A DNA stretch of 63,801 nt, the filler included, from Stramenopiles sp. TOSAG23-6 (lineage: Eukaryota): assembly GCA_900128565.1 (NCBI GenBank). It is 6 parts of 6 records of this genome, joined end to end, with 100 filler letters (N's around TTAATTAATTAA, not from the genome) between each part and the next. Parts side by side here need not be neighbours in the genome. Positions count along the whole stretch, not along the records: positions 25,139 to 37,464 come from LT636206.1; 5 more parts are not named here. One strand, written 5' to 3'. Shown piece by piece: positions 1-60,800 of this stretch (positions are counted from its first letter, which is position 1; each line of letters begins with the position of its first letter). Below the pieces are notes generated by a model that was not told the origin of the DNA, made no database searches, and saw nothing but the letters and a program-made list of their open reading frames with translations. Made by a program: the position numbers and the translations under genes.

Positions 1-55
1 GTACGAAATTTTGTACCTAACGAATTTTTTTTTGAAATATTTTTCCAAAATACAT

Positions 56-1845
56 GAGATTGAGAGATCAAGTTGATGATTGGGTTGCGCGAGGAACTAT
101 AGAAGCTAGTGCTGGCGAAGCAATTAAGCAAGTCTCCCTTCACCCAGAATGGCTCGATTTAAATGGACGTACGTTTTCAAAATTGATTTTTTATGTTTTA
201 TTATTTTTTTTTGTATGAATTTGTTTTCGTACGAAATTTTGTACCTAACAATTTGTTTTTTGAAATATTTTTCTACAATACATGGACCTTTATTTTATTG
301 GGCGCGGCATCTGCAATGGGTCCTATCGTAACATTACTTGATCATGGTGCACATGTCATTGCTGTAGACCTTTGTGGAAGACCTCAGCTTTGGAAAAGAT
401 TGTTTGAAATCGCGGAAAATTCATGTGGAAAATTATCATGTTTGTTTTCGTTATGAATTTTAAATTTATTTTTTTGTCTGAAAATTTTGTACCTAACAAT
501 TTACTTTTTGAAATATGTTTTCAACTTGCATTCCCATTACAAGCGGAACCAACCTCCCGAGAAGATGCATGTGATATTTCGTGGCTTGCAAATAATGCTG
601 GTGCTAACTTATTATTACAAGCTCCTCAAGTTTCTCAATGGCTATTGGAAGGGAAGACTGTTCAAGGTAAAAGTCTCCTAAAGGACGAACATTCACCCGT
701 TACTATTGGAAACTATACGTATCTTGATGGCGGAAAGCATGTACAGCTCTCATTAGCATGTGATTCTATTATTGAAGCTGTATGCCGCTCAAGATTTGAC
801 GTTTCAATCGCTTTTCTGTGTACCCCTACAGATTGTCACGTTATCGAATCAGCCGCATTCGAAAGTGCAAAAAAGAAGCTCCTTGAAGTTTCACTTTGGC
901 AATCTCTCTGGGATTCGTTAGGCTTCCTAAAAAGCAACAGTTCGGTGGATATGGTTGTCGAAATATCCGATGAAAAATCTTTGCATATGGTCGACGGACT
1001 AGTTTTGGATCAAGGTCCGAATTATGCATTAGCAAAACGATTACAACACTGGAGGGCAATCGTTGCTCACTCAAAGAAGCACACAGTCAGCGCTAATGTG
1101 GCACCGTCAACAGCGACACTTTCTGTAGTAAAGAATAAAAGTTTTGCTGCCGCATATAAGGGTATGCATATATTTCAACCTTTGGAAGTGTTCTATCAAC
1201 ATACTTCTAATGCTGTTATGGAAGCGTTACTCATATATGATATATCTTGTGAGAATTCTCCAGGAAATGGTCGAAATGCTAAAAAATTAAACAATCCGTT
1301 AGAACTCTTCAAATATGTACGTTTCCATGATAAATTTCAAATATTATTTTTTCGTACGAAATTCCGTACCTAACTATTTTTTCTAAAATATTTTTTCACA
1401 ATACATGGTTCATTTCATGGAGGTGCTCATCGATGCGCTTTCACGATTGGGTCTATTGGTATCCCCTCTGCCGTGAGTCATTACATATCCGTTTACTGGT
1501 TTAAGATATTTACTATACTTTGGCTTGCTGCTGGATGTTGGTTTTCATCATACATTTCAAATTTAATTTTTGTGTTTTGACACGAAATTTTGTACCTAAT
1601 GATTTTTTAAATTTCTCGGATATTTTTTCACAGTACATGGTGTTGGGGGATTTTCGATGAAACTTTGGAGTATGTGGCTAATGAAGATTACCGAACTTTC
1701 CTCGCCAAGATTGGTCTTGCTGAAGTTTTGTATGAAAATAAAGGTTCTGGTATGTTCTGGTAGTCTGGTGTTTCATTCCTTGTTGAGATATATTTTGTAT
1801 TTTGCAAACAATGAAAAATACAGAAAACAATTGAATGGCGAATGA
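56..1845 (+). CDS. Conserved uncharacterised protein with a Rossmann-like LLGAASAMGP motif (5' partial, 5 exons)
   Basis: Introns at <1-55, 169-283, 440-531, 1317-1406 and 1533-1638 join WLDLNG-R-TFILLGAASAMGP, GKLS-F-PLQ and ELFKY-GSFHGG in frame. Confidence 0.8.
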
Positions 1846-2029: not shown

Positions 2030-4553
2030 TCAATATTCTTCCATGCGTTTAATCATATCCTTACCACATTTCCCACATGCTTCTTCGATAGCTGCGCTGA
2101 GTAACGCAATCATCTCATATAACTTTTGCCTTCCTTGGTTTCGCGGATTAAGCATTATAATATCGTGTACTGTAATCATGTATTTTGGAAAAATATTTCA
2201 AAAAAAATTCGTTAAGTACAAAATTTCGTATGAAAAATAAATTCGAAATTGAAAAAAAAATAAAACATACATACCACTCATGAAATCGTCATTTACTTCG
2301 CAGATTGGTGCCCTTTGGGCGAGAGATCTCAACTGTCTTAAAACTTGAATGGCATACCTCGCAAGTTGTTCTTGTGCAAATGTAATTATATCATTTTTAG
2401 AGACTTCGGGTACATAATGATTAGTGATAAATTTTGTTTCCAATGTATTTTGGAAAAATATTTCAAAAAAAATTTTCAATTTGTTAGGTACAGAATTTCG
2501 TACGTAAAAAAAATGGAATTCGAAAAAAAATAAAACATACATTTGAAACGTCGGAGACTTCGGAGAAATAAGGCAAAATTTCGTTCCACAACTCGCGTAA
2601 GATTAGCTGCTTTAACCAACATGACGTCATTGATTGCAGTTTCAAGATTGATGAAATTGTAACCCAATGAAGTTTCTAATTCACGAGATTCCTGTAAAGA
2701 TTCAATATGTATTGTGAAAAAATATTTAAAAAAAAAAAAAATAGGTACGTAATTTTTTTTCAAAAAAAAATTGAAATTCATAAAAAAAAACCCTTAGGTA
2801 CGAAATTTCGTACAAAACCATAATGTAAACGTACACGAGCGACAGCAGATTCCATGGCTAAAATCCGTCTTTCATTGATCTTCCGTCTTTCTCTGTCAAT
2901 TTCATGTTGAGTTTCGATTACACCAATCTCATCATTACTAAAGTGATGCTGAAACATGTATTTTGGAAAAATATTTCAAAAAAAAAAAACTTAAAATCAT
3001 TAGGTACAAAATTTCGTACGAAAAAAAAATCGATTTTTTTGTAAAAAAAAAAATAAAACATACATTTGTGAACCTATGGAACCAAGTATGGATAGATCAT
3101 CATTCGACATCATACTTGTTGGTATGTTTTGTGAAAAATATTTCAATTGTTTTTTATTAGGTACAAAATTCCGTACGAAAAAAAAATAAATTCAAAATTA
3201 ATGATGAGAATGTACATAGTAACATCGACATCATCACCATGAAGAGAAACATTATTCTCACCGTCATCATCACAATAATTATTACTGTATTGTCGCCTTC
3301 TCCTTAATATAGCACGATCAGAGTTACCAAGTCTGCTTTCCAGTATTACAGATATTTTGTGAAAAATATTTTTTTTCATACAAAAAATTGTTAGGTAAAA
3401 ATCTAAAAAAAAAAAAATTACAAACTCAAAAAAAAATCTTTTTTGTTTAGGTACAAAATTTCGTATGAAAAAATAAATAAATTTGAAATTCACTATGAAA
3501 ACGTACATGCGTTGCGTTTTCTAGACCGAAGAATACCATTTGAATGAACATTTGAATGAACATTTGAATGAACATTTGAATGAACATTTGAATTGGTATC
3601 AAGAGGAGGGGCACTCAGCACATTCGAAGTTGAATCCGTACCAAATTTCGTACCTAACGATTTTCGTTTTGAAGAACAATCAGGAATATTTGGAAGAGAT
3701 TTGTCAGCTATTAATGCGGGTGGTGGAAATGTGAAATTCGGCTCAATTTCTCCAGAAAAAAATGTAGAACTATTTTCTGAATCAGTGGAACACATGGAGT
3801 CATTGCGTGATTTATCCGAACGAAATGCTGCGGGAAAAGCAAAACTGTCATATATTGTGAAAAAATATTGTAGAAAAGCAAATGGTTATAGGTATACAAT
3901 TTCATACGAAAAATAAATAAATTTGAAATTCAAATTTTCAAACGTACATCATCACCCGCTAGAGCTGCTGAGAAAAATTTCGCACTGCTATTGGATGATT
4001 CAGAATTCAGAGAATCTGTGCGTGTTTTCATACTACTACCAAAGCTTTGAAACTTTAGAGAATCGTCATATATATCAGTCAAAGTTTCTATTTGATCATC
4101 TTCTTCATGTTTTCCAATTTCAGCTTCTTCATAATTTTCATTTCGAGAAAGAGTTCGATCTAAGCAACCACTAGACCGACGACGCGACGAAGATACAATG
4201 CTGGATCGTCGGCGCTGTAACAGTTCATCAATTTTCTGGACAGAGCTTCGTCGCTGCAATAGCCCAGCAGTGGTATCAAGTTTGTGGCTAGATCGGCGGC
4301 GCTGTGAAGTTACCTTACTTTGGTCAATTTTATGACTAGAGCGTCGGCGTATTTGTCTTGGATCATATTTTTCCGATGTCGCTATTTGTGTACTCGATCG
4401 ACGTCGAGCAGCAAACAATGCTGCCATTGCTACCACCTTGAACTTATTATCTTCCGGTTCTGGTTCTACAACTGGCATTTGGTCAATGCATACTGGAAAT
4501 GGGAGTTTCCCAGAACTGGTCAAGGAGTTTCGATGAATACTGCCCCCCTGCAT
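2030..4553 (-). CDS. Hypothetical protein, 8 exons, with RRSS-rich N-terminus
   Basis: Introns 3850-3947, 3352-3506, 3124-3215, 2956-3063, 2707-2834, 2443-2540 and 2178-2270 (all GT..AT) give one continuous frame ending KRMEEY-stop. Start codon uncertain. Confidence 0.75.
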
Positions 4554-10866: not shown

Positions 10867-12445
10867 TTATTTCATTCTTGTTCCCGCCCAAATCATCTTT
10901 TTTTGGGTCGTGGTATCATGGGGAGATTTTTTACCACGTTGTTTTTGTATACCAACCAGTCCTTCACCAACAATGTCAACTCCACGAATTCTTTTTATTT
11001 GTTTCACCCCCGAAAAGCCACGCCCAAAAGGATCGTTTGCAGTTTTTTCTCTGAGAACAGAGCCTTCTTTGTTGACTACAAAGGCCACAGCTCCACCGGG
11101 TCCACGTATCCAGGAATCCTCGGTCATAGGAAGTAACCGAGGCGAATTAATGTCAGGATCAATAAATTGTTCATACCCAAAAACTTTTAATAAACTTGTT
11201 ATATTTGTTTGTCTTGATACCCACACTCGTTGTTCCCTGGTATAATGATGAAGATTTTTCCCAATCACGCCACCAGTTCTGGGTTTATATACACCAATAT
11301 TTGCACCAGAGTCATCAGCCCCTCGATCATTTGATGACTCCTTTTCATTAGCAGAGTTTTGCTTTACAGTTTTATGAGCACTCGCATGTTCTTCCCGCGA
11401 GAGTTCTTCTGCCATATTCACAGCTCTCTCTCGAATATTCGCCAATCTACTCAAATTACCATCAGATATAAATTCAGCTATTTTATCCACAGCTTCCTTT
11501 CTAGAATCCAAATTTACTAAATCTTCAAAACGAATAATTAATAAACCACCTCGGAGACCTTCCCGAATTGTATGTTCACCTGGCTTACTCAAAATAATGC
11601 CATCAGGATCATGAGAATTTTTAGCGAGATTTAGCCAAAAATGGTGAAATTCAGCCCAAATATTCATTTCTCTGAAGACCATATCATCCCACACATATGT
11701 TGTAAAAAAATATTTTACATTTAATTTTTTTGTTAGATACATTTTGTTTTGAAAAAATTGAATATACATTCAATTTTGAAAACATATATCTCCCCATCTT
11801 TTCATTGAATACTCTGAATCCTTGACAGTTTTTGTATGCGAAGATGTTAATATAAAATTGAAGTAGCTATTGACAGCATCAAATGGATTTCTTATCACCA
11901 ATATTGCTCTATCACAAGAATACAATTTCCAGCCTGATCTTTCGGGGAAGTGGGTTTTTACAACCTCGACATTGCTGTTCACGGAACCCTCCCCCATGAA
12001 TCCCTTTTTACGAAGAGCAACACTTAAAGCACGATCAGGACGGACATCACTCCCAGTGACATTTCCTGTGATACGTTCCACTATACTACGGGTGAAGCTA
12101 TTACCTGATCGCGGGAAGCTTGTTAGACTTATATGTCCGCCATAGCGTTTCAATTGGTCATTTGTTATCATCTGCGACGACGCTGGGCCTAATTTCTTTT
12201 CAACACAAATGTTATCTTTTTTCTTTGTAAAAAATGAGGGAATTGGCGGAGGCAAAAATGGCAGTGTTGGCATGTTTGCCAAAGTCTGTGAATGTAATCC
12301 AAGTAAGTTATCTTCAACTTTACACAAAGCTGAATGAAGACGACCATAATTGCGACATATTGCTTGTAGCTCTAATAAAAGAGAAATAAACTCAGGACGT
12401 AACGTAGCAATGCCGCGAGCACCTGGAATTTCAGATCCTTTCATC
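10867..12445 (-). CDS. Sulfotransferase-domain protein, WSCD-like (5' partial)
   Basis: SFPRSGNSFTR 5'-PSB loop, VKTH, and LVIRNPFDAVNSY 3'-PB motif. Intron 11695-11787; upstream intron 12446->12500 is cut by the contig end. Confidence 0.85.
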
Positions 12446-25204: not shown

Positions 25205-25630
25205 ATAATTGTTTACTTGTACAGGAGATATCCCGCGAATATTCGCATAAAAAACCATAACTTCCCAAACGGTCAATGTGTCAAACAATGCATTTGCTTG
25301 AGGACAAAATCCAAACCCAAGCATGTATTTTAGAAAAATATTTCAAAAAAAAAACTTAAATTTGTCAAGTACAAAATTTTCAAAAAAAAAACATTTGAAT
25401 TTGAAAAAAAATTAAACATACATATCTTCCCTACTCATAGAATATATTTCTCGATTATTCACATAACATTTTCCACTTGTTGGTGTTAATTGTTGCATTA
25501 GAATGGATAACGCTGTCGTTTTACCGGCGCCATTTGCACCCAAAAGTGAGAAACATTCACCTTTTTTTATACGCAAACTTAAATGGTGCAAAGCCAATGT
25601 ACCCTCATATCTTTGGTTATTTTGAGGATC
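25205..25630 (-). CDS. ABCA transporter nucleotide-binding domain, two internal exons (partial)
   Basis: GECFSLLGANGAGKTT, GFCPQ and LFDTLTVWE. Intron 25323-25421. Confidence 0.85.
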
Positions 25631-25700
25631 ATGTATTTTGGAAAAATATTTCAAAATTTTCTTAAAAAAAAAAAATTTGTTAGGTACAAAATTTTTTTAC

Positions 25701-25737
<37 letters not shown>

Positions 25738-25757
25738 AATGCATCATGAAAATGTAC

Positions 25758-31344: not shown

Positions 31345-31567
31345 AACTAGTCCAAATTAGTTGCAATTTTAGTATAATATCGCCATATTATCCTAGTGCA
31401 TAGTATATAGAATAACATTGTATATCACGGCAAGTTTTCTTTGGAGTTGTTTTGAAATGTAAAACAAAAAAAACACTCTTGGAAAATGAATGCTGGAAAA
31501 TCAATAAACTTTTTCAAAAAATAAAAAAGATTAAAAAACATTTGTCTCTTTTTATGATTATACAAAC

Positions 31568-32346
31568 TTATTTGGAAATCTCATTTTGTGTTTTTCTTGC
31601 ATTTTCTAATATTGAAAAAAATCTCTGTCTCCAAGCTGATACCATATCTGATGTCTCACGACGAATAGCTTCCTGTGCTTTCTCATATGAGCTAATATTG
31701 ATAGATAGTATTTCTGCGTATCGGCAAAGTACTGTGGAAAAATATTACAGTTTTTTTTATTAGGTACAAAATTTCGTACGAAAAAGAAATAGGCAAAAAA
31801 ATAATGAAAACGTACAACATATCCACCACAGTCATAACCATTTGTTTGCGATGCGCATTCCATTCGTTTAAATGCAGCCTCGTCCTTAAAATTACATGTT
31901 TTATTGATTATAACTGCCATCTCTTTGGCAATGGTTTCATTAACACTAGAATATGCAGAATCATAATATTCCCACACTGCATCTTCGTCAGATGTCGCTG
32001 ATAAACGATTTAGTACCAATAAGCTCCAGTGTGTTCCACCATTAGGTTGTCGTAACTCCCTATTATTATTCACGGGTATAAGTGCTAACTGTTTGGTGTT
32101 TAATTGAAAATGTTCAAACATATCTTTAATATCTTCATCATCTGTTTCTTTTATTGCTAGAGGAACTAAACCTGGGTGGAAAAATGCAATCGAAGAATCC
32201 TTACTAATACTATGCTGCAAGTATTCAAAGAACGCCCAAATGCAGTTATCATTGAGCCAATTTCCGGGTTTTAAAAGTGCTACATCGTCATTCATTAAAT
32301 CAGCAGAGTGAAAAGTAACGTAGAGATGTTTGTCGCGAGTCGTCAT
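31568..32346 (-). CDS. SENP8: SENP8/NEDP1-like Ulp1 (C48) protease
   Basis: WLNDNCI, GGTHWSLL, YYDS, QTNGYDCG. Intron 31727-31815 (GT..TT) continues YV-CRYAEIL. Confidence 0.85.
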
Positions 32347-32548
32347 GACAAAAGAAAATACGTAACAATAAAAAAGGTAGTACTTCTAAAAATGTCTTTA
32401 AAATTCGACAAGAGTTTTTGACACCAAACAAACCCTAACCCTAGCTTTTCGTTTTTTGAACGCACCGGTCGTAATAATACATTGGAATCTCAAGTTCAAA
32501 AAAGTTTGAAAAAACAACGTTCTTTCAGAGTGAAACACAAGACTTAAT

Positions 32549-34429
32549 ATGAGTGGCGCAGGCTCTGGATTGTTCGGAACAAACAATGGAAGTTTTTTTA
32601 AAGCTCCACATTGGGTGGATTTGGAAAAACGTCCAGGGAGGACAACTCAAAAATCACCAAAATGGATTGATTGGGTAAAATCAGTTTTTATGTTGAAGCA
32701 TATTTTGCTCTCTCCCAACTTGATATGGCTTTCCTTTGCAATTTTGGTGTATTTATTTTTCCCATATGATTTGGAGGCGGCAAAAGAGTGGCAAGTAGGG
32801 TGGGTTATGCATCGTGCATTGCTAAACATCGCAATTCTGTTCATCTATTATGGTTTTTGGTTTGGCACGTTAAGAGCAAATGGGCTTGGTTGGGGAAAAC
32901 GAAAGTTCAACGTTCAAGATATCACTTCGACGTCTGTAGTTTTTCATAATGTATATTATAGTTTTCTTGGGACACTACAATGGACTGCATGGGAATGCGG
33001 ATTTATGCATCTTTATGCTACCGGAAAGCTGGCATACGTATCTGATGCTGAACTATTTTCTACCCCTTCCAATGCTGCACGAACATTAATTTTTACAGCA
33101 GCAGTACCGGTGTGGAGAGGATTACATTTTTATGCGTCACATCGTTTCATTCATATGAGGGCAATTTATAGATATGTACATTGTTTACATCATCGTAATG
33201 TTGATATCGAACCTTTTTCAGGTCTCTGTATGTACGTTTTCAAAATGAATGTAAAAAAAAAAAAATGTACCAAAATTTGTATGTAACAGAAAATTTGAAT
33301 TTAAAATATTTTTCATAAAACCTGCATCCAGTGGAGCACCTGTATTATTTTTCGTGTTTGGCTCCGTCTCTTTGTGTTTTAGGAAGCCCATTTCATATGT
33401 TATGGAACGGTATGCATTTACTACTCTCACCAGCAGCAAGTCATTCGGGTTATGAGGATCATGTTTGTTTTCATCATTTCAATTTTAAATCGTTTTTTCG
33501 TACCAAATTTTGTACCTAACAAAAAAATCAATTTTTTGAATTTTTTTTTCACAACACATACACAGAGTGATCAGTTTCACTATCTGCACCATCGTTATTT
33601 TGAGTGTAACTTTGGATCAGCGTCTTTCCCGTTGGACAATTTATTTGGTACATTTAGAAGTGTTGTAGGAATAAAATCAAATGTAGAAAATAAAATTGAA
33701 CCTAACCCTGAAGAGAACCCTAACCCTAAAGAGAAAGAATTGATTGTAAAAACAAACGACAAGAATCCACTGCATCGTCGTAATGTCAATGTACGTTTTC
33801 ATTTCAATTTCAAATTATTTTTTTTTGTATTAAATTTTGTACCTAACATTTTTTTTTTGAAATATTTTTTTGCAATGCATAAAACAAAACTAAATGGACT
33901 AAATAAGAATGAAAAAGGAAATATTACTGAAAAATATGCATCTAAAAAGGAGAAACCATCTCGTTCATTAACACTTAAAATTCCCTCAGGTTTTTATGTC
34001 TATTTTATGCTTACCAGTGTTGGATTACCACTGCTTCTAATAGACTCGTTCAATAATACTATTTTTATGAAAAGTTTTGGTCTTTCAGATTTTTGTCTTC
34101 CACATTTAATTGGATCAATTGTTGCGTTTGGTCCATTGGTTTTAGCAGCTATATTAGTTGTGCTGACTGGTGATAAACTAAGTTGGCGTTGGCCGTTTCA
34201 TCGTGAAGTGATAATTGGAAAGTTTGGAATGCATTTGATAGTTGGTTTTCTTGTGGGTGTTTTACCTGTATTTCACATAATCTCTCTTTTATTGTCATCT
34301 AAAACAAAACAACATGGATATGGTAACTCTAGCGATAACAGTTGGGTACTTTCTAAAACGTTCCTTCCAGTAACAACTAGTACATTTGAATGCATGGCAA
34401 TTCCCTTATTTGAACGATTTCGTCAATGA
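32549..34429 (+). CDS. Fatty-acid hydroxylase / sterol desaturase family protein
   Basis: His boxes HRFIH, HCLHH and HYLHH. Introns 33232-33323 (GT..CT, restores FSGLCMHPVEH), 33463-33559 and 33791-33880. Confidence 0.85.
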
Positions 34430-35633: not shown

Positions 35634-35664
<31 letters not shown>

Positions 35665-35738
35665 TTTTTTTTTCGTACGAAATTTCGTNCCTAACAAATT
35701 TTTTTTTTTTTTTTTTGAAATATTTTTACAAAATACAT

Positions 35739-36002: not shown

Positions 36003-37399
36003 TTACAAAGCTCTAGCTGATTTATGCACGGGACAGCCCCAACATCCATATTGAGTTTCAAGCACTCCTTCAGTTTTTTCAGGTAGTTGCAACACAGGTT
36101 CTCGAATAAGTCTTTTTATTTCTTTTTCAGTAAATGCAAATACAATGACAGGTAATGCTTTTGTATCACTCAAGTATTGTGAAAAAATATATTTTTTTGT
36201 ACAATTTGTTAGGTACAAAATTTCATACGAAAAAAAAAATTATATTGGACATTTATAATAAAAACATACATGGTAACATCACCTCCTTTTATTCTACGTC
36301 CAAAACTAAATGCTTTACAGAACACTCCTTTTGGTTTCAGCATCTGATTAAATTATGTGAAAAATATTTTATAAAAAAAAAACTTAAATTTGTTAGGTAC
36401 AAAATTTCGTACGAAAAAAAAACAAAATTGAAATTGATGATGAAACCGTACAATATCCCTCAGCCATTTTCGAAATCCAATTTGAAATGGATCGAGTTTT
36501 GCAAAAGGTATACATCCATAAAAGAACCAGAAGATTGGTAATAAAATCGATACTATCATTAAAAAGCAATGAAAAACACGACAAACGTCGCAATGATGAC
36601 TTTTCTTTTGGACTTTTAATAATTGTTGCATTGAAATTTTCCATTCTTCTTCCGTCACATGTATTGTGAATTTTTTTTTTTTTTAATAAAAAAAATCGTT
36701 AGGTACAAAATTTCGTATAAAAAAAAACATTTTTAAAAATTTTTTAAAAAAATTAAAAAAACCTACACCTCTGGCTGCTAGAGGGTTTGGTACGGAATGA
36801 AACCACTCTTCATCTTCCATGTGAGGTTGAAAACCACCACATCGACCAAAAACAGCAACGCAATTATTTGTGTCATTTCCTTCAATGACAAAACGAGAGT
36901 TTGAATTTTGCCATAATTCTGGACCACACAAACCTGTCTCATTATCAATTTCAGACCCTAACCCTAACCTCTCATCCATAGAATTATTTTTTTCAGGTTC
37001 CTGAAGATGTGCAAATTGAAGAAAAATACTTTCTAAATTATTCTGACCACACATAAATGACGCAATCTTATGAGTATCTTTCAGTTTCTGTAATTCTCGG
37101 TATACTACAGGCAGTGAAAATGTATCACACATGTATTGTAAAAATTTTTTTTTTTTTTTTCCGTAAAATAAAAAAAAATCGTTAGGTACAAAATTTCGTA
37201 CGAAAAAAATTAAATTTGAAATTAATTGTAAAAACGTACGATCCAAGTTGTGCAGAACAAAATTTCTTATCATGTCGTTTATCCATCTTTACATTTGGAC
37301 ATAATTTCTTTAATACAGGAATAACATTATCTGCAACATCGTAACCCGGTTCCATTGTTACAGTGCAGGTATATCCTTTTGCATATTTTGAAAGTAGAT
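36003..37399 (-). CDS. ABCA transporter C-terminal part with extension (5' partial, 5 exons)
   Basis: LLSKYAKGY and QNNLESIFLQFA ABCA regulatory motifs. Introns 37131-37239, 36659-36765, 36350-36451 and 36172-36269. Confidence 0.75.
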
Positions 37400-37564: not shown

Positions 37565-38040
37565 TTTGTATTTTAATTATGCAAATGAAGGAAAGAGGAC
37601 AGCCTCATTTGTGTGCGGGTTTGAATCCTGATTATTTTGTCAGTTGTGTTGAAAACTTGGAAAGCTTACTTAGAGCAGACAAAGCTGTCACATATTGGCT
37701 TCGATCAGGTTGTATGCATTTAGACCGCGAGGGGCCTGAAATTGTAAAACCCTGTCCTGCACATGTACGTTTTGATTTTTTTTGTGTTTAATTTTCATAC
37801 GAAATTTTGTACCTAACAAAAAAAATCAATTTTAAAAATATTTTTTCATACGAAATTTTGTACCTAACAAAAAAAATCAATTTAAAAAAATATTTTTTCA
37901 TTATACATGCTATCTGCGCATGGGTGCCCAATTTATTTGAGGATGTCGGAATTGTCACACCAAGAAATGAACTCGCACCAATGTGCCCAAGAGATTTTAA
38001 GTATTTACCGAGAATTCCAAGAAAACAAGCCACTCAATAA
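37565..38040 (+). CDS. Hypothetical protein, last two exons (5' partial)
   Basis: Intron 37765-37908 joins KPCPAH to AICAWVPNL in frame. Confidence 0.6.
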
Positions 38041-39611: not shown

Positions 39612-40727
39612 ATGGCCTCAATACGAGGAATAAAAAAAATGACACCTCTAATGAGAGGTCTAGGGGCTGCCGTTTTCTCTGGCTTATCTGCTACAACTTT
39701 TGGGTTGGGTGTATGGCAATTTAAGCGTTTCTATGAGAAAGAAGACCAGATTATTGCTAGGGAAAGTCTTCTCCATGCACCAGTGAAACCAATTTCAAAT
39801 TTACTTATTGATGCGCTGACTGAAGGCAATCAAACTGATATAGACACTCATACCAATCAAAGAGATATTGAAATGCCAAATTCAATTGATTTCACGTCTC
39901 AACTCTTCAAAAAATTCCGTTGTGAAGGCAAATTTGAAGATGGCGTTGTTATTCTTGGACCTCGGTCACCACCAAAACACACGGATATTTATGACAACAA
40001 GAAACCAGGATCTGCATCTGGTTTTTATATCTTTTCACCATTCCGATGTAATGATGGGCGTTTTATAGTTATATGTCGTGGTTGGATTCCTAGGAGTGAA
40101 ATAAACAGAAATCCTGCCACAAAATGGAAAGTTTCAGAAGATCCTCGACGGGCTTTAACTACTACTGTGACTGGTGTGTTGAGAAATACTGAAAAAAAAG
40201 CACGATTTAGTCCAGATGCAGAAATATCGAAGAATCATATGAAGCCCTCACGATTCTATTGGCTCGATATAGATGGTATTGCTACTACATTAGGCATTAG
40301 ACTAAGAAATTCATCACCAGTTCCTAAAAAAGAAAATAGTGTTGTTGAAGAAGATGTTTACATAGATTTGTTACCAAATGGAGAAATATACGATACATCG
40401 AGTAAACATACTAGTAAAACAACATGGTTTTCGGGGTTGTGGTGCGTATTCACCATTCGTGTTTTACCTACTATTTTTTTTTGTACCAAATTTTGTACCT
40501 AACGAATTTCAAATTTTTGAAATATTTTTTCACACAATAGGGGGACATCCACCATAGATAATAAGACTATTGCTATTCAATCGAACGATTTTGTTCCTAT
40601 TGCAAAACCACTCGATGCACACAAAGATTTTTATACAACAACGTTTACTCATGCTGGCTATTCTGCAACTTGGTTTAGTTTATCTTTTTGTTGTTTTGCA
40701 TTAACATTCTTGAAGTTTAGACGTTAA
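39612..40727 (+). CDS. SURF1: SURF1/Shy1 cytochrome c oxidase assembly protein
   Basis: TFGLGVWQ and ICRGWIP. After intron 40442-40540 (GT..AG) comes HAGYSATWFSLS. Confidence 0.9.
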
Positions 40728-50041: not shown

Positions 50042-53000
50042 GTACGGTTTAATAGTATTGTTACACGAAAAGTTCTCCTAATCGGATCTGGAGGTTTATC
50101 CATTGGACAGGCTGGAGAATTTGATTATTCTGGTTCACAAGCCATCAAAGCTTTGAAAGAAGAAGGAATTGAAGTTGTTCTAATCAACCCAAATATTGCA
50201 ACTGTCCAAACCTCAAAAGGCTTAGCCGACCACGTTTATTTTCTCCCTGTGAAACGAAAGTTTGTCCTTGATGTCATCGAAAAGGAAAAGCCTGATTCTA
50301 TTCTTGTTTCAATGGGTGGACAAACTGCTTTAAATGTGGGTGTTGAAATGTGGAGAGCGGGAGATCTTAAACGATTAGGAATTCGTGTTCTTGGTACTCA
50401 AATTGATGCAATTATGGCTACTGAAGATCGTGATGTTTTTGCCCAAAAACTCTCTGAAATTAATGAAAAAGCTGCTCGTTCTATGGCTGCTGAAACTGTT
50501 GCTGATGCTGTAAAGGTTGCTGCTGAGATTGGTTACCCTGTGTTAGTCCGTGCAGCATACGCTCTTGGTGGTCTTGGATCTGGCTTTGCAGAGAATGAAA
50601 CTGAATTGCGTACTCTTGTAAAGAAGGCATTTTCTACTAGTAGTCAAGTTATCATCGATCAAGATTTGCGTGGATGGAAAGAAGTTGAGTATGAAGTTGT
50701 TCGTGATTGCAATGATAATTGTGTTACTGTTTGCAATATGGAAAATTTTGATCCTCTTGGAGTTCATACTGGTGATTCTATTGTGGTCGCACCATCACAA
50801 ACTTTAAGCAATGCTGAATATATGAAACTTCGTGAAGTCGCTATTAAGGTCGTTCGCCACCTTGGTGTAGTTGGTGAATGTAATATTCAATATGCTTTAG
50901 ATCCTAAATCTGAGCGATACTGTATCATTGAGGTCAATGCGCGGCTCTCACGATCCTCAGCTCTTGCTTCAAAAGCTACTGGATATCCTCTTGCATATGT
51001 TGCTGCGAAATTAGCTCTTGGCAAAGATCTTGTAGCGATTCGTAACTCAGTGACTCGGACGACAACTGCATGCTTTGAGCCTTCTCTTGATTATGTTGTT
51101 GTGAAAATGCCTCGATGGGATCTTAAGAAATTTTCTCGTGTTGATCAATCTATTGGTAGTGCAATGAAATCTGTCGGTGAAGTCATGGCTATTGGTCGAA
51201 AGTTTGAAGAAGTCTTTCAGAAAGCTTTGAGGATGGTTGATGGTGCTTGTACGGGTTTCGGTTCTAAACGATCGCTTGAAGCAATTGAAAGTCAAACAAA
51301 AGAATCCTTAGAGTATGCCTTAAAAAATCCTTGTCCTAGACGCGTGTATCATTTGGCATCTGCTTTTCAACGAGGATATACTCTTGAACGATTACATGAG
51401 CTTACTCATATTGATCGATGGTTCCTTTCAAAGTTGCGAAATATTCATCAAATGGGAGCGGCTCTTTCCAATCGTTCTTTGAATAGTCTAACTGCTGGAG
51501 AGTTTAAACTCTTAAAATGTCATGGCTTTTCTGATCCTCATATTGCAGAATTGGTTGGTATTACGAACCAGTCTGGATTAGATGGGTGTGGTCCAAATGG
51601 TGGAAGTACTGTACGTTTGATTTTTTTTTCAATTTCGAATTTATTTATTTTTCGTAAGAAATTTCATACCTAACAATTTCTACAAAAAAATATAATCATT
51701 TATTTCATGTACGTACTGCTCGTAAAGCTCTAGGTATTATTCCGTATGTCAAACAAATTGATACCCTTGCTGCTGAATTCCCAGCACAAACTAATTATTT
51801 GTATATGACGTATAATGGTTCAGAGAACGATTTGACTTTCAATGATGGTGGAGTTGTTGTACTTGGTTGTGGTGCGTATTGTATTGGTTCATCCGTTGAA
51901 TTTGATTGGTGTGCAGTTAGTTGTGTCCGCGAAATCCGTGCACAAAAAAAAGAAGCAATTGTCATTAATTTCAATCCAGAAACTGTATCAACTGATTATG
52001 ATGAAAGTGATCGGTTATACTTTGAAGAATTGTCATTAGAACGGGTTCTTGATATATATGAACTCGAAACGGCTGAAGGTGTTGTTGTATCTGTTGGTGG
52101 TCAAATTCCAAACAATCTCTCCACGCCACTTCACACTAATGGTTGTACAGTTCTTGGAACTCCAGTAGAATGCATTGACCGTGCTGAAGATCGAAACAAG
52201 TTTTCAGCAATGCTTGATGAAATTTGTGTAGATCAACCTCGATGGGCTTCACTTACAAGTATTGATGCTGCGCGAACATTCTGTGCTGAGGTTGGATACC
52301 CTGTTCTCGTACGACCTTCATATGTCTTATCTGGTGCTGCTATGCGAGTTGCATCAAATTGGGATCAAATGTCAGAATTTATGAGTAATGCTGGGGAAAT
52401 TAGTCCTGATTATCCCGTTGTCGTATCGGAATTTATTAATGGTGCAAAAGAAATTGAGTTTGATGGTGTCGCTAATAATGGAGAAATTCTCAACTATGCT
52501 ATTTCTGAACATGTTGAAAATGCAGGTGTCCATTCTGGCGATGCAACATTGCTGTTACCGTCACAAAAGTTGTACACCCAAACGAAACGTCAAGTTCAGA
52601 GAATCGCAAAGAAAATTGCGAAAGCTTTAAACATTTCTGGGCCATTTAATATTCAGTTGATGGCACGAAGTAATGATTTGAAAGTTATTGAATGCAATTT
52701 ACGTGCCAGTCGTACTTTCCCATTTATATCGAAATGTTTCGACCTAAACTTTATTGCACTTGCAACACGTGTCATGCTCGGTCTTCCTGTAAAACGTTTA
52801 AATGTTAATGAAAACGATTTGGACTTTGTTGGTTGCAAAGCTCCCCAGTTCTCTTTCACGCGCTTACAGGGAGCTGATCCAACTACTGGTGTAGAAATGT
52901 CATCTACCGGCGAAGTTGCTTGTTTTGGTGTAGATACTTATCAAGCGTTTCTCATGGCAATTATGTCCGCTGGTTTCAAGTTGCCAGCAAATGGTGGTAA

Positions 53001-57819: not shown

Positions 57820-60800
57820 ATGCTTGAGGGGCAACCCGAATGTCCTTCTCGTAGGAAGAAGCAACCCGAATGTCCTTCTCGTAGGAAGAAGCAACCCGAA
57901 TGTCCATCTCGTAGGAAGAAGCGTAAGCAATATGTATTTGAACTTGAGCTTGAAGATCCAACAAACTGGAAGTTTGTGGAAGCTTCTGCCCGCTTGTTAT
58001 TACCTAGTAGTGTAAATTGGGGTTCGGCTAAGCTATTGACTGGAACATTTGGAGATAAGTTGTTGTCTATATCTGGTGAGTGTTCTAAATCTGTATCAGA
58101 GGATGCAGCCGATCTACTTGAAAAGCTTGATGGTGTGATAGATGTAACGAAAAACAAAGTATTTGGTTTACACTTCAACAACCATAGTTCTGAAGTGCAG
58201 AATGACAAATCCTTAGCAAATGATAGTTTAAGTGAATTACCTGCTCCAATGGTAAAACCAATGGTAGCTTCAACATCACGTCAGCGACATCGATCTGTAA
58301 AGACAAAATCTATTCATGGAACCAAATCTCGGCATTTGTCAAAAGCAGAGCTTCGAAGAAAAAAGGAGCGGAAGCGTAAGAGTAAAATGGAAAAAAAAAT
58401 AGTTAAAAAAAGAAGTTTCGAGCAGCTTCGAAGTATTGTTTCTCATCGCATCAAGCAACTAGAATCTTTACATAGCCTATTAACAGATCAAAAAAATATA
58501 CACACAGACATAAAAGAATTGCGAGTCACTGGAAGTGCATACGTTTCTCAATCTCTATGTGTTCGCGGCACAGTTACAATTGGCACTGGTGAGCAGTCAG
58601 TCACCAGGAATTTGAATGATATATCCGATACTTATTCTTGGTACAGGTGTGTGAAAGATTCCTATGATATTCACGACAAACAACAACCTGTTGGCGTTGG
58701 GCAAGAATATACTCCTACTACAAATGATATTGGGTGTAAGCTACGTGTTATTGTTATTGCAAACATTAAGGCCTCTAATACCAAGAAAACAATTTTGTCT
58801 CCTTTAATTGATATTAGTCCAGACGCAAGTCATCGTATTTATGATATAATACACTCGAGGATAGATGTAGATTTTCCAGTTAAACAATTGACAATTAATG
58901 AAGAAGGTCAAATCGATGAAAACACGAATAATAAATGTTCAATAGTTATTTCAAAACATAAAGTGAAATTTCGCGTCGATGGAAAATCTGTATGTTTTTA
59001 TTGAATTCTTTATTACAATTTCAATTTTTTTTTTTTTTTTTTGGTACCTAACAAAACAAATCAAATTTTTGAAATATTTTCCTAAATTACATGTAATAAA
59101 ATCTGAACGTTTTGAAGGTCATAATTATTCTGAACCTGATCCTTTTCATAGTTATGGTATAACTTTGTGTCTGACGCCTGTTGATTCTAAGTCACATTGT
59201 TTACAATTAAGAACCTATATCAAAGAAGATGTACTTTTTATCACGAATTTGAAATTTATTTTTTTGTACCAAATTTTGTACCTAACGAATATTTTCAAAA
59301 CAAAACAAAATATTTTTTTCACAATACATCGTGATATTCTGATTATGACTTTGAATGCGATACATGTAGGATTTTCATAATGAATTTCAAATCTATTTTT
59401 TTTACTACAAAAATTCTGTACCTAACAAATTTAAAATGTAAAATATTTTCTTACAAAACTATTTTTTTTTTTTTTTTGGTTTTCGTACGAAATTCTGTAC
59501 CTAACAAATTTAAAATGTAAAATATTTTCTTACAAAACATGCTCAAAGTAAACTGACGCATATTGCAAATGAAGGAACTTCTGAACCTGTATATCAACCT
59601 GGTAGTGGTATCCAACAACATAATAGTCATTACACTGAAAATTCAAGTGATTCCTCGAGAGATGTTCAACAGAAAGCAGCGGAAGAAGCTGCAAAATTAG
59701 TACAAATTACCCGAGATAAATTATCTCCTTTGGGACAATTATTACATAGTGGGTGCACATTGCGCCCATCGATTAAAAATGTAAAGCATAATGATGATGA
59801 TGGCGAAACTAATGATGATGGTAACAATGAGGATGTGGGGAATAAAGCCACTCCGAAAACACCAGTAAATGGTACACAAAATGGTACAAATACGATTGAA
59901 AGGAAGAATCATGAAAAAATTGAAATTTCAAAACCATTAACGTTTCAGTCATGGCTCTTATCTACGTTTGATGAAAATCAATTGAAAAAATTTGCTTCAA
60001 GTTTAAGTGAAAGTGGCGAAATGCCAGAAGATCATGTTGATGTTCTTCATTGGGCAATAGCTGGTGCAATTTCTTCGGGCAAAAAGATACTTGATAAAAA
60101 TGATAACGAACAACCCAATACTAATGATAACGAACAACCCAATACTAATGATAACGAACAACACAATACTAATGATAACGAACAACCCAATACAAATGAT
60201 AACGAACAACCCAATACTAATGAGATCCTTTTTAACAAAAAGGAATTTCAAAGAGATCCAAAATACACAAAGAAACGGCATACTTCATCACCGAAAGTTT
60301 CTCCGTCGATTATCCAACAGAATAAATTTCAATTCTCCTCATCTTTGAATAACTTGTTTAAAAGTCCGACACAAAAAAAAACGAGAAATGTAAAGAGATT
60401 ATTCAGTGAGAATTCGTTTAATAATTTATCTCCATTTAAAACTAGTCAAGAAACTGAGAAAAAAAGTCCAATTCCTTTTCCTTCCGTAAAAGTTGAAAAG
60501 GAATCGACTTTTCTTCAGAGTCCTCGGCCATTAAATAGTAATATACCAAAAACAATTCAAAGACAACTGTCAAATAGTAGTATATCAAAGACACTTCAAA
60601 GACAATTAAGTTTTAGTGGTCGAAATGTATTAAATGAAGGAATGAGCCCTATGCCTATAACAAAACCATCTACGTCATCAATGCCTTTTGAAAACCCTAT
60701 GCCTATAGCAAAACCATCTACGCCATCAATGCCTTTTGAAAAATACATGTTAACTCCTCGATTGATGAAAACATTTTCTGGTGTAAAAAAACAGAAATCT

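What the first reader, a model, noticed from the sequence alone, without database searches (positions are those of the whole stretch)
31727..33323. Acceptor appears to be set by a ruler: 14-16 nt after an AAATAT box, whatever the dinucleotide
Seen: the distance from the end of AAATAT (or a close variant) to the junction is 15 nt at 283, 531, 1406, 13581, 51708, 59092 and 59540 (AT), 12961 (AA), 18805 and 31727 (TT), and 23049 and 40540 (AG). It is 14 nt at 33323 (CT), 13194 (AG) and 36350 (TT). The branch-to-acceptor distance varies much more (about 34-55 nt). There is no normal polypyrimidine tract next to the junction (CCAAAATACAT). A few introns lack the box (33463-33559, 36659-36765). Inference: a factor or snRNA binds AAATATTTT and positions the 3' splice site, which frees the terminal dinucleotide.
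Basis: partly seen in the sequence, partly recalled or inferred. Interest (0 to 1): 0.8.

Follow-up and report, generated by a model that had tools for sequence, protein, structure and literature searches.

The report
Repeated introns that end without AG

Summary
All 15 junctions listed lie 15 nt (12) or 14 nt (3) after AAATAT or TAATAT, against 0.6% of positions by chance. The non-AG acceptors are real: the frame test supports exact removal in 24 of 30 copies. Homologues align without gaps across 9 non-AG junctions. One contig joint skips 31727-31815 exactly. In my set of 34 introns the ends are AT 24, TT 4, AG 3, AA, GT, CT.

The ruler is not shown. These introns are copies of one repeat: 48 profile hits in 64 kb, and a 21-nt 3' module 24 times against 0.12 expected. 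Linked 5'/3' variants mark subfamilies (p=2e-5), and 6 of 12 contig ends break inside the repeat. The spacing is therefore inherited. The junction follows the element's end when the spacing is 14, 16 or 13/16, and in 6 of 34 introns with no box. The last 10 nt predict it better than the box (25 vs 18 of 34).

Best reading: an introner-like family with a yeast-like 5' site and branch site and AG-independent acceptor choice. I found no report of it in five literature searches.

The parts
31727..31815 (-). Intron, element copy, GT..TT (89 nt). 5' site 31807-31815, branch block 31759-31780, TAATAT box 31742-31747, 15-nt tail 31727-31741.
   Evidence: A contig joint 31726->31816 skips exactly this stretch (X3, side 29, position ambiguous by 2). 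Frame test best at this end. Sub-features read. An unused CACAG lies 5 nt upstream of the end.
33232..33323 (+). Intron, diverged element copy, GT..CT (92 nt). 5' site 33232-33240, branch-like block 33272-33287, box 33304-33309, 14-nt tail 33310-33323.
   Evidence: Homologues align gap-free across the junction in 6 of 6 that span it. Boundaries are ambiguous only among TG..CC, GT..CT and TA..TG (read). Sub-features.
33463..33559 (+). Intron, element copy without the box, GT..AT. An in-frame CAG 6 nt downstream is not used.
   Evidence: the model ending at 33559 is gap-free, while the CAG alternative needs a 2-residue gap in 4 of 4 homologues. Frame test.
33791..33880 (+). Intron, element copy, GT..AT (90 nt).
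   Evidence: (136 codons against 13).
169..283 (+). Intron, element copy, GT..AT.
440..531 (+). Intron, element copy, GTTTG..AT.
1317..1406 (+). Intron, element copy, GT..AT.
2178..2270 (-). Intron, element copy, GT..AT (subfamily with the CCAAAATACAT end).
2443..2540 (-). Intron, element copy, GT..AT.
2707..2834 (-). Intron, element copy with an internal partial duplication, GT..AT.
   Evidence: Frame test (47 against 12). Module found.
2956..3063 (-). Intron, element copy, GT..AT.
3124..3215 (-). Intron, element copy, GT..AT, box at 14 nt.
3352..3506 (-). Intron, element copy with an internal duplication, GT..AT, box at 14 nt.
   Evidence: 68 against 36.
3850..3947 (-). Intron, element copy, GT..AT (variant box CAATAT).
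   Evidence: (118 against 46).
12868..12961 (+). Intron in the aldehyde dehydrogenase gene, GT..AA, with unambiguous boundaries. AGs 2 and 10 nt downstream are unused.
   Evidence: gap-free in 9 of 10 homologues; both AG alternatives give stop codons.
13005..13194 (+). Longer intron, GT..AG. Its 3' part carries the same module, with the box at 14 nt.
   Evidence: junction gap-free.
13230..13344 (+). Intron with a duplicated 3' module (candidate ends 13329 and 13344, 15 nt apart, both in frame). The distal end fits the homologues.
   Evidence: (8 of 8 gap-free with the distal end).
13471..13581 (+). Intron, element copy with 5' GAATGT (GA..AT; the position is ambiguous by 4 nt and AT..AC is also possible).
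   Evidence: 61 against 27; 7 of 7 gap-free.
13736..13829 (+). Intron, element copy without the box, GT..AT.
13944..14038 (+). Intron, element copy, GT..GT.
   Evidence: 5 of 5 gap-free; moving both cuts 2 nt upstream gives a stop.
14168..14283 (+). Intron, diverged copy, GT..AT, box at 14 nt.
   Evidence: (5 of 5 gap-free).
14442..14545 (+). Intron, element copy, GT..AT, box at 14 nt.
   Evidence: frame only.
17827..17942 (+). Intron, element copy, GTTTG..AT, box at 16 nt.
18805..18902 (-). Intron, element copy, GT..TT.
   Evidence: (62 against 11).
23049..23150 (-). Intron, element copy, GTTTG..AG.
25323..25421 (-). Intron, element copy, GT..AT.
36172..36269 (-). Intron, element copy, GT..TT.
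36350..36451 (-). Intron, element copy, GT..TT, box at 14 nt. The frame test is a tie; the end was settled by chaining frames by hand.
36659..36766 (-). Intron, element copy without the box, 5' GTAGGT, ..AT.
37131..37239 (-). Intron, element copy without the box, GT..AT.
   Evidence: (74 against 16).
37765..37908 (+). Intron with a tandemly duplicated branch block and box, GT..AT.
   Evidence: (tie).
40442..40540 (+). Intron, element copy, ..AG. The 5' cut is ambiguous among in-frame GTs.
51611..51708 (+). Intron in the carbamoyl-phosphate synthase gene, GT..AT. There is no AG between the branch block and exon 2.
   Evidence: (exon 2 starts where 11 of 11 homologues resume).
58990..59092 (+). 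Intron, element copy, GT..AT.
   Evidence: (95 against 9).
59231..59329 (+). Intron, element copy, GT..AT, box at 16 nt.
59366..59540 (+). Intron with a tandemly duplicated 3' half, 5' GTAGGA, ..AT.
   Evidence: 133/585 codons.
11695..11783 (-). Diverged copy (5' GTTTTC). The frame requires the acceptor 13 or 16 nt after the box, not 15.
   Evidence: 227 codons against 9.
25631..25757 (-). Element copy whose junction is unresolved (the frame test prefers -2/+1).
1537..1638 (+). Element copy whose junction is unresolved (the frame test prefers -2/+1).
35666..35738 (+). 3' two-thirds of an element, with intact branch block and 3' module. It lies between two minus-strand genes and is not flanked by plus-strand coding sequence.
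   Evidence: (only 17 open codons downstream).
1..55 (+). Element copy cut by a contig end inside the branch-block palindrome. The same happens at 12446-12500(-), 12601-12671(+), 25139-25154(-), 37400-37464(-) and 49988-50041(+).
   Evidence: 6 of 12 contig ends..

Best explanation
The introns of this window are copies, in at least two subfamilies, of one ~90-115-nt introner-like repeat.

Each copy carries:
- a yeast-like 5' splice site (GTAYGTTTT);
- a 22-nt block holding a branch site (CGTACGAAATTTTGTACCTAAC);
- a low-complexity A/T spacer;
- a 21-nt 3' module (AAATATTTTTCCAAAATACAT or its ..TTCACAATACAT variant).

Shown: the RNA product requires a cut just before GTAYG and just after the last base of the module. 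That base is usually the T of ..TACAT, and the cut does not depend on AG. The 15-nt box-to-junction spacing is therefore part of the inherited element sequence.

Inferred: removal is by the major spliceosome, using the element's own 5' site and branch site. The acceptor would be recognised AG-independently through the 3' module as a whole (U-run as a short pyrimidine tract, C at -3, T at -1), not by counting from AAATAT. How the element inserts is not established: no target-site duplication was seen, and the preferred site is ..AT|G...
For: Repeat family.
- 48 nhmmer hits (E<=1e-3) came from a profile built from 16 copies.
- The 21-nt 3' module occurs 24 times against 0.12 expected, 9 of them exact.
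- Similarity runs over the whole length, including a fourth block (AATTTCRAAT) between the 5' site and the branch block.
- The 5' variant GTATGTTT[TA]A goes with the 3' variant C[CT]AAAAT.. in 6 of 8 copies against 0 of 26 others (Fisher p=2e-5).
- 6 of 12 contig ends fall inside the branch-block palindrome.
- One copy with an intact 3' module lies in non-coding DNA.

Junctions.
- The frame test is strictly best at the element end in 24 of 30 copies; chance is about 1 in 3.
- The aldehyde dehydrogenase model is gap-free at 7 junctions.
- The fatty-acid-hydroxylase model is gap-free at 2 junctions.
- Exon 2 of carbamoyl-phosphate synthase starts where 11 of 11 homologues resume.
- A contig joint skips exactly 31727-31815.
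- Moving both cuts 2 nt upstream (an ..AC acceptor) gives stop codons in two introns.

Against a measured distance.
- The spacing is 14 or 16 in 8 of the 34 introns; 11695, outside that set, needs 13 or 16.
- Six introns have no box.
- The terminal 10 nt predict the site in 25 of 34, the box region in 18 of 34, both together in 32 of 34.

5' site: G 29/29, T 28/29 and G at +5 25/29.
Against: - Every intron I could find in the window looks like the element, so 'one family' cannot be told apart from 'all introns obey one strong signal'.
- Three relatives' proteins (P0121, P0122, P0134) diverge exactly at the 33232 intron site. That position may be old rather than a recent insertion.
- No target-site duplication. 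The exon's last two bases equal the intron's last two in 17 of 34, of which 16 are AT/AT. Among the 15 copies whose flank is not AT, only 1 matches.
- The terminal complementarity (81% of cells) shows no covariation (49 of 500 shuffles reach it).
- No autonomous partner was identified.
- Direct transcript evidence is one contig joint, in a run flagged 'RNA? (probably DNA)'. It could instead be an empty site in another strain.
- Three copies (25631, 11695, 1638) prefer a cut 2 nt earlier or 1 nt later.
- The even, high conservation of the 3' module fits a functional signal as well as youth.
Confidence: 0.7

Rival explanations
1. One reading: a protein or snRNA binds AAATATTTT and the second-step cut is made 14-16 nt downstream, whatever the bases there.
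For:
- In copies whose terminal motif has decayed (33323, 14038, 51708, 531), the site is still 14-15 nt from an intact box, and CATs 7-8 nt upstream are passed over.
- A distance-set acceptor is known for U12-type introns. In Physarum the branch motif lies 10-12 nt from the 3' site and the termini vary (passages of 10.1101/2020.10.12.336362).
Against: - The spacing is confounded by common descent.
- 6 of 34 introns have no box and are cut at the same terminal position. 33559 is confirmed by homology.
- At 11695 a cut 15 nt from the box breaks the frame (9 against 227 codons).
- The strict rule 'AAATAT+15' finds 16-17 of 34 junctions, against 25 of 34 for the terminal 10 nt.
- In the two-module intron the proximal module is not the one that fits the homologues.
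Confidence: 0.12
2. The likeness is not common descent. In this organism all introns, old and new, are held to unusually long splicing signals (5' site, branch block, 3' module), as in intron-poor yeasts or Trichomonas/Giardia, and so converge on one look.
For: - No intron without the motifs was found in the window.
- Relatives appear to have an intron at the same site as 33232-33323.
- Conservation is concentrated in blocks.
Against: - Linked 5' and 3' variants about 90 nt apart (p=2e-5).
- Spacers and T-runs are shared exactly among the youngest copies, and a 21-mer is exact 9 times.
- The assembly breaks inside the repeat.
- A copy lies in non-coding DNA.
- Roughly one intron per 1.3 kb is not an intron-poor genome.
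Confidence: 0.1
3. These are minor-spliceosome (U12-like) introns with changed motifs. Acceptor choice by distance and tolerance of non-AG ends are normal properties of that system.
For: - The 5' site is extended and rigid: 9 conserved bases, and GTATGTTTT differs at one position from the Physarum variant GTATCTTT.
- ACCTAAC resembles TCCTTAAC.
- Non-AG ends, including GT-AT, are known for U12-type introns.
- Physarum U12 introns look transposon-derived.
- Minor introns exist in some stramenopiles.
Against: - G at +5 in 25 of 29 and GTATGT/GTACGT are major-type, yeast-like signals (established knowledge, recalled).
- The branch-like block lies 33-57 nt from the end, not about 10-15.
- No snRNA gene is in the window to test this.
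Confidence: 0.05
4. The elements are removed from DNA (like ciliate eliminated sequences) or the junctions are artefacts (misassembly, wrong gene models).
For: - The only joint comes from a run flagged as probably DNA.
- A piggyBac-type transposase ORF lies at 26722-29733.
- The elements have inverted-repeat-like ends.
Against: - The elements carry a 5' splice site and a branch site.
- The complete copies with junctions that I could test all sit in sense orientation within genes.
- The standard genetic code gives long ORFs, and the best protein matches are stramenopiles, not ciliates.
- Nine junctions are confirmed by independent homologues, so the gene models are not the source.
Confidence: 0.03

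Closest known systems
Introner elements of Micromonas pusilla and Aureococcus anophagefferens (MITE-like, intron-generating transposons; review PMC11282704, sections 5-6 read)
   Same: Many near-identical short introns in unrelated genes, all in sense orientation. The element brings splice signals and has inverted-repeat-like ends.
   Different: Those have 3-nt target-site duplications and canonical GT/GC-AG ends, with one site co-opted from the duplication. Here no duplication is evident and 31 of 34 acceptors are not AG.
Non-canonical, MITE-derived introns of the tunicate Fritillaria borealis (Henriet et al. 2019, known to me only through the review PMC11282704, section 6)
   Same: Transposon-derived introns with non-canonical ends, removed by a spliceosome that has become tolerant of them.
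   Different: There the 5' end is the non-canonical one (AG-AC, AG-AT). Here the 5' site is a conserved GT with G at +5, and only the acceptor departs. The organisms differ too: an animal there, a probable stramenopile here.
Non-canonical introns and introners of Amoebophrya (PMC7789003, passages read)
   Same: A marine protist. Repeated introns with inverted repeats and short direct repeats at the borders, and more than 60% non-canonical ends.
   Different: Amoebophrya has no consensus dinucleotides at either end, predicted hairpins that join the ends, and no detectable U1. Here both ends have a strong consensus (GT..AT), a clear branch site is present, and no stable fold is predicted.
Expanded U12-type introns of Physarum polycephalum (10.1101/2020.10.12.336362, passages read)
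   Same: A rigid extended 5' site, probable transposon origin with inverted-repeat ends, non-AG ends including GT-AT, and an acceptor at a fixed short distance from an upstream motif.
   Different: In Physarum the 5' site is RTATCYTT, the motif is the branch site itself (TTTGA, 10-12 nt from the end), and only 0.8% of its introns are non-canonical. Here G sits at +5, the branch-like CTAAC lies 33-57 nt upstream, and about 90% of ends are not AG.
Euglenid nonconventional introns (review PMC11282704, section 6)
   Same: Non-canonical borders, no polypyrimidine tract at the junction, complementary ends, repeat-like border sequences.
   Different: Those lack GT and a branch consensus, depend on a conserved end-to-end helix and are released as circles. 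None of these features is seen or testable here.
Budding-yeast type major introns (GTATGT ... TACTAAC ... YAG; recalled, from no call)
   Same: The 5' site (GTATGT/GTACGT), a TAC(C)TAAC branch site, and a long, variable distance from branch to acceptor.
   Different: Yeast needs YAG for the second step. Here the equivalent triplet is CAT (C at -3 in 28 of 34, T at -1 in 30 of 34).

Membership tests
Introner / MITE-derived intron family | Many introns in unrelated genes alike over nearly their whole length | tested here: met
   48 nhmmer hits in 63.8 kb. Alignments. The 3' module occurs 24 times against 0.12 expected.
Introner / MITE-derived intron family | Subfamilies: linked variants at distant positions, showing descent from master copies | tested here: met
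   The 5' type against 3' type table is 6/2 against 0/26, Fisher p=2e-5.
Introner / MITE-derived intron family | Terminal inverted repeats | tested here: inconclusive
   Seven terminal positions are complementary in 81% of cells. They are short and AT-rich, and show no covariation (49 of 500 shuffles reach the value).
Introner / MITE-derived intron family | Target-site duplication flanking the element | tested here: not met
   The exon's last 2 nt equal the intron's last 2 nt in 17 of 34 (16 are AT/AT). Of 15 copies with a non-AT flank, 1 matches.
Introner / MITE-derived intron family | Copies outside introns, and presence/absence polymorphism | tested here: inconclusive
   One partial copy lies in non-coding DNA (35666-35738). 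One contig lacks the 31727-31815 copy, but it may be cDNA.
Major (U2-type) spliceosomal intron | 5' GT with G at +5 | tested here: met
   G 29/29, T 28/29, G at +5 25/29. 33 of 34 start with GT.
Major (U2-type) spliceosomal intron | Branch consensus CTRAY upstream of the acceptor | tested here: met
   A GTACCTAAC-like block (at most 2 mismatches) lies 33-57 nt from the end in 32 introns. Its use as the branch point cannot be tested here.
Major (U2-type) spliceosomal intron | Acceptor YAG preceded by a polypyrimidine tract | tested here: not met
   AG in 3 of 34. The last 10 nt are A-rich. A U-run of 4-7 nt lies 9-11 nt upstream.
Minor (U12-type) intron | 5' site RTATCCTT | tested here: not met
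   The consensus is GTAYGTTTT, with G at +5 and T at +6.
Minor (U12-type) intron | Branch site TCCTTAAC about 10-15 nt from the acceptor | tested here: not met
   ACCTAAC lies 33-57 nt upstream. No such motif sits at 10-15 nt.
Minor (U12-type) intron | U11, U12, U4atac and U6atac snRNAs present | not testable with these tools
   No whole genome is held. The Rfam scan of the window found only an LSU rRNA fragment.
Structure-defined non-conventional introns (euglenids, Amoebophrya) | A stable helix joining the intron ends, and no conserved terminal dinucleotides | tested here: not met
   RNAalifold predicts 0 pairs. Single folds have z-scores of -0.36 to -1.49. GT starts 33 of 34, and T ends 30 of 34.
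Distance-set acceptor ('ruler' from AAATAT) | The box is present and the distance is constant in all functional copies; spacer indels move the cut relative to the exon | tested here: not met
   Exact box at 15 nt in 17 of 34, at 14 or 16 in 8, and absent in 6. At 11695 a cut at 15 nt breaks the frame. The junction follows the element end.

The most novel reading that the evidence does not exclude
This lineage, probably an uncultured marine stramenopile, has a major spliceosome that no longer needs AG at the 3' splice site. GT..AT (..TACAT|G) would be its dominant intron class genome-wide. The class would have been spread by an introner whose 21-nt 3' module, not the terminal dinucleotide, tells the second catalytic step where to cut, possibly with a positional component measured from the U-run/AAATAT part of that module. 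If so, it would be the first organism in which a canonical 5' site and branch site are paired with a non-AG acceptor as the rule rather than the exception.
Probability: 0.45. Interest if true: 0.85.

Novelty: new variant of a known kind. Interest (0 to 1): 0.64.

Why it matters
The AG at the 3' splice site is among the most constant signals in eukaryotic genes, read both by U2AF35 and by the catalytic core in the second step. A free-living organism in which about 9 of 10 introns keep an orthodox 5' site and branch site but end in CAT, CTT, CAA, CGT or CCT would be a natural experiment on how the acceptor is chosen.

It would add a fourth, different case, after Fritillaria, Amoebophrya and Physarum, to the idea that bursts of intron-making transposons go with relaxed or retuned spliceosomes.

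There is also a practical consequence. Gene finders that insist on GT-AG will mispredict most multi-exon genes of this organism, and probably of its relatives: three homologues in public protein sets read straight into an intron at a shared site. That affects the protein catalogues built from marine metagenomes.

Tried and rejected
Searches and look-ups that gave nothing.
- Whole genome and earlier findings: not available.
- Public runs: four seawater or plankton metatranscriptome runs hold small shares (0.06-0.11) of 29902-35688. All are contigs.
- Read laying gave only one joint on an element. Most exons had depth 0-5, so the lack of further joints says nothing.
- A second joint, 34541->34648 (X3), runs into the repeated interior of an element copy and could be a strain variant or an assembly chimera. 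It is not interpreted.
- Two scans of JGI metagenome contigs. An exact 20-mer of the branch block gave 0 loci. A gapped branch+box pattern gave 21 loci, none a real copy: the best nhmmer E-value was 1.4e-4, covering only the pattern itself.

Protein tests that were uninformative.
- A protein search with the 149-aa ORF 13288-13734 found nothing.
- Pfam exon by exon was too coarse to place junctions.
- Pfam on exon 2 of the Ulp1-like gene, in either frame, found nothing, so the TT against CAG choice at 31727 rests on the joint and the frame.

Structure.
- No consensus fold.
- No covariation in the terminal complementarity.
- Folds are no better than shuffles.
- So 'the ends are brought together by a helix' was dropped as the main mechanism.

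Alternative rules for the acceptor.
- AT..AC reading (both cuts 2 nt upstream). It gives the same mRNA in the 16 copies with AT on both sides, but it is rejected as a general rule because it gives stop codons in introns 13944 and 14168.
- 'First CAT after the branch'. Rejected: upstream CATs are skipped at 33323, 14038, 37908 and 51708.
- 'First AG after the branch'. Rejected: 6 of 31 non-AG introns have an unused AG between the branch block and the junction, and in the listing 16 have one within 12 nt downstream.

Other.
- The piggyBac-like ORF as the element's transposase was not pursued. The known hallmarks of that family (TTAA target) are recalled, not tested, and are not seen at the element's ends.
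- A search for introns without element likeness, through ORF breaks, was too noisy to be conclusive.

Full report
WHAT THE WINDOW IS

The 63.8-kb window is AT-rich (28-40% G+C). It is made of six contigs joined by N44-TTAATTAATTAA-N44 spacers.

It carries ordinary eukaryotic genes:
- sulfate permease;
- SRP68;
- carbamoyl-phosphate synthase;
- an aldehyde dehydrogenase;
- a fatty-acid-hydroxylase-family protein;
- a Ulp1-type protease;
- the prenyltransferase alpha subunit.

The carbamoyl-phosphate synthase is 60-64% identical to its best matches, which are oomycetes, Cafeteria, labyrinthulids and other stramenopiles. The only public runs holding parts of the region are seawater or plankton metatranscriptomes. 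I therefore take it as an uncultured marine protist, probably a stramenopile. That placement rests on one protein.

THE OBSERVATION

All 15 junctions in the finding were re-read. Only 0.6% of positions in the window have an AAATAT 14-16 nt upstream.

The branch-block-to-junction distance is 33-57 nt (sd 5.4). The box-to-junction distance has sd 0.54. The boxless introns exist.

Two corrections:
- The end is not free. T is last in 30 of 34 and C is at -3 in 28 of 34.
- The box is followed at once by a U-run of 4-7 nt, a short pyrimidine tract 9-11 nt from the junction.

ARE THE NON-AG JUNCTIONS REAL?

Frames. For copies with a recognisable 5' site, removing the stretch from G of GTAYG to the aligned last base of the element gave the longest open frame on both sides in 24 of 30 cases, compared with shifts of -2 to +2. 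There were 2 ties and 1 offset caused by my projection, which lands on the ACAT end. Three cases prefer -2/+1 (25631, 11695, 1638). Chance would give about one third.

Homology.
- The spliced aldehyde dehydrogenase model aligns without gaps at seven junctions. These include GT..AA at 12961 (9 of 10 homologues), GT..GT at 14038 (5 of 5) and the GA..AT intron 13471-13581 (7 of 7).
- At 12961 the AG 2 nt downstream and the CAG 10 nt downstream both give stop codons.
- Within the finding's own coordinates, the GT..CT junction at 33323 is gap-free in 6 of 6 homologues that span it.
- The junction at 33559 is gap-free, whereas the in-frame CAG 6 nt further on would cost a 2-residue gap in 4 of 4.
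- In carbamoyl-phosphate synthase, exon 2 must begin at 51709, where 11 of 11 homologues resume. There is no AG between the branch block and that point.

Reads. One contig of run X3 joins 31726 to 31816, which is exactly the element. Its shorter side is 29 nt, its position is ambiguous by 2 nt, and the run is flagged as possibly DNA. It is either a spliced cDNA or an empty site. Either way it defines the same unit and passes over a CACAG 5 nt upstream.

The alternative of shifting both cuts 2 nt upstream would make most copies AT..AC. It gives stop codons in two introns, so GT..NN is the general rule.

In my set of 34 introns the ends are AT 24, TT 4, AG 3, AA 1, GT 1, CT 1.

WHAT THE INTRONS ARE

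They are copies of one repeat. A profile built from 16 copies finds 48 hits, about one per 1.3 kb.

The copies share four blocks:
- the 5' site GTAYGTTTT;
- AATTTCRAAT;
- CGTACGAAATTTTGTACCTAAC;
- the 21-nt 3' module.

A/T runs join the blocks. The 3' module alone occurs 24 times against 0.12 expected, 9 times exactly.

Evidence of descent rather than convergence:
- The 5' variant GTATGTTT[TA]A goes with the 3' variant C[CT]AAAAT.. in 6 of 8 copies and in 0 of 26 others (p=2e-5). Linkage over about 90 nt indicates descent from different master copies.
- Six of the 12 contig ends fall inside the palindromic branch block, as expected of a high-copy repeat, or of a palindrome, in a short-read assembly.
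- There are internal tandem duplications (37765-37908, 59366-59540, 13230-13344, 2707-2834, 3352-3506).
- Fragments lie in untranslated or intergenic DNA.
- One copy with an intact 3' module lies between two minus-strand genes (35666-35738).

Intron density is very uneven. There are nine introns in the 2-kb aldehyde dehydrogenase gene and none in ORFs of 1003-2107 codons.

What I could not show:
- A target-site duplication. Exon flank and intron end agree in 17 of 34, almost all AT/AT. The preferred site reads ..AT|G...
- A partner transposase.

One fact cuts the other way. Three homologues from other organisms diverge exactly at the 33232 site, reading on as if into GTAC(G)... So that intron position, or the habit of inserting there, is shared with relatives.

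RULER OR INHERITANCE?

Because box and junction belong to one inherited 21-mer, the peak at 15 nt is expected without any measuring. The informative cases are the exceptions.
- Where the U-run is one base shorter or longer, the frame-preserving junction moves with the element's end. It is 14 nt at 3124, 3352, 14283, 14545, 33323 and 36350, and 16 nt at 17942 and 59329.
- At 11695 a cut 15 nt after the box leaves 9 open codons, against 227 for 13 or 16 nt.
- Six of 34 introns have lost the box and are still cut at the same terminal position. 33559 has homology support.
- In the intron with two modules, the proximal one scores better on every weight matrix, but the distal end is the one that aligns without a 5-residue insertion in 8 of 8 homologues.
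- Leave-one-out weight matrices find the junction in 18 of 34 from the box region alone, 25 of 34 from the last 10 nt alone and 32 of 34 from both. The strict rule AAATAT+15 finds 16-17.
- The greater spread of the branch-to-junction distance is explained by the spacer, 11-24 nt of A/T runs up to 12 long.

On the other side, copies with a decayed terminal motif but an intact box (33323, 14038, 51708, 531) keep the site and pass over upstream CATs. So neither part is individually required, and a positional contribution cannot be excluded.

STRUCTURE

- RNAalifold finds no consensus pair in 21 copies.
- The terminal complementarity (GUA with UAC at -5 to -3, UUUU with AAAA) holds in 81% of cells. 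It shows no covariation beyond shuffles.
- Six single folds are no more stable than shuffled sequence (z -0.36 to -1.49).

A helix that sets the cut, as proposed for euglenid and Amoebophrya introns, is therefore not supported.

HOW IT MOST LIKELY WORKS

Shown: exact removal of the element from GTAYG to its last base, irrespective of AG.

Inferred:
- The major spliceosome uses the element's own yeast-like 5' site (G at +5 in 25 of 29) and its CTAAC branch site.
- The second step accepts a site marked by the 3' module (U-run, C at -3, T at -1) instead of YAG.

Rivals:
- strong convergent signals without common descent (about 0.10);
- a U12-like system (about 0.05). Its appeal is that distance-set, AG-independent acceptors and GT-AT ends are documented there (Physarum). 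Against it are the 5' site and the 33-57-nt branch distance;
- DNA-level removal or artefact (about 0.03).

COMPARISON WITH WHAT IS KNOWN

Transposon-derived introns with non-canonical ends are described for Fritillaria, Amoebophrya, Polarella/Symbiodinium, Physarum and euglenids (review PMC11282704, sections 5-6 read; PMC7789003 passages; Physarum preprint passages; minor-intron survey passages). None combines a conserved GT 5' site and CTAAC branch with a predominantly ..CAT acceptor.

Searches:
- Five full-text searches found no report of GT..AT as a dominant class, nor of such introns in stramenopiles.
- A sixth search was used to locate the single-cell genome paper on uncultured stramenopiles (PMC5778133). 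A find for 'intron', 'splice' and 'canonical' in its text showed that it mentions introns only in its methods.
- The mirusvirus paper (PMC12768974, passages) reports canonical GT-AG.
- I did not read Gozashti et al. 2022 or Henriet et al. 2019 themselves.

I therefore file this as a new variant of a known kind, an introner family with non-canonical borders. It fails the membership tests for U12-type and structure-defined introns, and the YAG criterion of ordinary major introns.

LIMITS

- Only 64 kb of one assembly was available.
- Transcript evidence is a single contig joint.
- Three copies are unresolved.
- The organism's snRNAs and splicing proteins are unseen.
- The insertion mechanism is unknown.

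Noticed in passing
12501-12600, 25039-25138, 37465-37564, 49888-49987, 62296-62395: The window is six contigs joined by N44-TTAATTAATTAA-N44 spacers, so neighbours across a spacer are not necessarily linked in the genome.
   Followed up: partly
61832-62237 (-): The 3' end of a eukaryotic large-subunit rRNA (Rfam RF02543, 255 bits) runs into a contig end. It could be used to place the organism.
   Followed up: no
26722-29733 (+): An uninterrupted 1003-codon ORF has a piggyBac-type transposase domain (PF13843, E=1.4e-18). It contains no element copy and has no evident link to the intron repeat.
   Followed up: no
P0121, P0122, P0134 (homologues of the gene at 32549-34429): Three database proteins from other organisms diverge exactly after the residues that precede the 33232 intron, and read on as if into an unspliced intron starting GTAC(G). 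Relatives seem to have an intron at the same or an adjacent site, and public gene models there look mispredicted.
   Followed up: partly
43608-49931 (-), 53629-57573 (-), 5134-8676 (-), against 12601-14680 (+) and 2178-3947 (-): Intron density is very uneven. ORFs of 2107, 1314 and 1180 codons have no element, whereas the aldehyde dehydrogenase gene has nine introns in 2 kb and the gene at 2178-3947 has about eight.
   Followed up: no
13471-13581 (+): One element copy has GAATGT instead of GTATGT at its 5' end, yet the junction is confirmed by homology. The cut is ambiguous over 4 nt, so GA..AT, AT..AC and others give the same mRNA.
   Followed up: partly
34542-34647 (+): A contig of run X3 skips these 106 nt in the 3' region of the gene ending at 34429, while another contig of the same run covers them. 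With the cut moved by 1 nt the skipped piece reads GT..AT, but its right side is repeated element sequence, so it may be a chimera or a strain variant.
   Followed up: partly
36191-36446, 34655-34910, 36959-37214 (depth table): In two RNA runs the summed contig depth over element copies is 1000-6000, against 0-5 over exons. This fits a very high copy number of the repeat, or abundant unspliced or excised intron RNA. It cannot be separated with contigs.
   Followed up: no
32435-32450, 33706-33735, 14180-14195, 16200-16212 (-), 36962-36978 (-): Telomere-like TTAGGG/CCCTAA dimers occur upstream of a start codon, inside exons and inside an intron. One X3 contig ends in such a repeat at 33735.
   Followed up: no
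62396-62470 (+): A contig begins with tandem repeats of a T-rich ~13-nt unit (..TTTTTTTTAGAAA..), followed by a branch block and a diverged 3' module.
   Followed up: no
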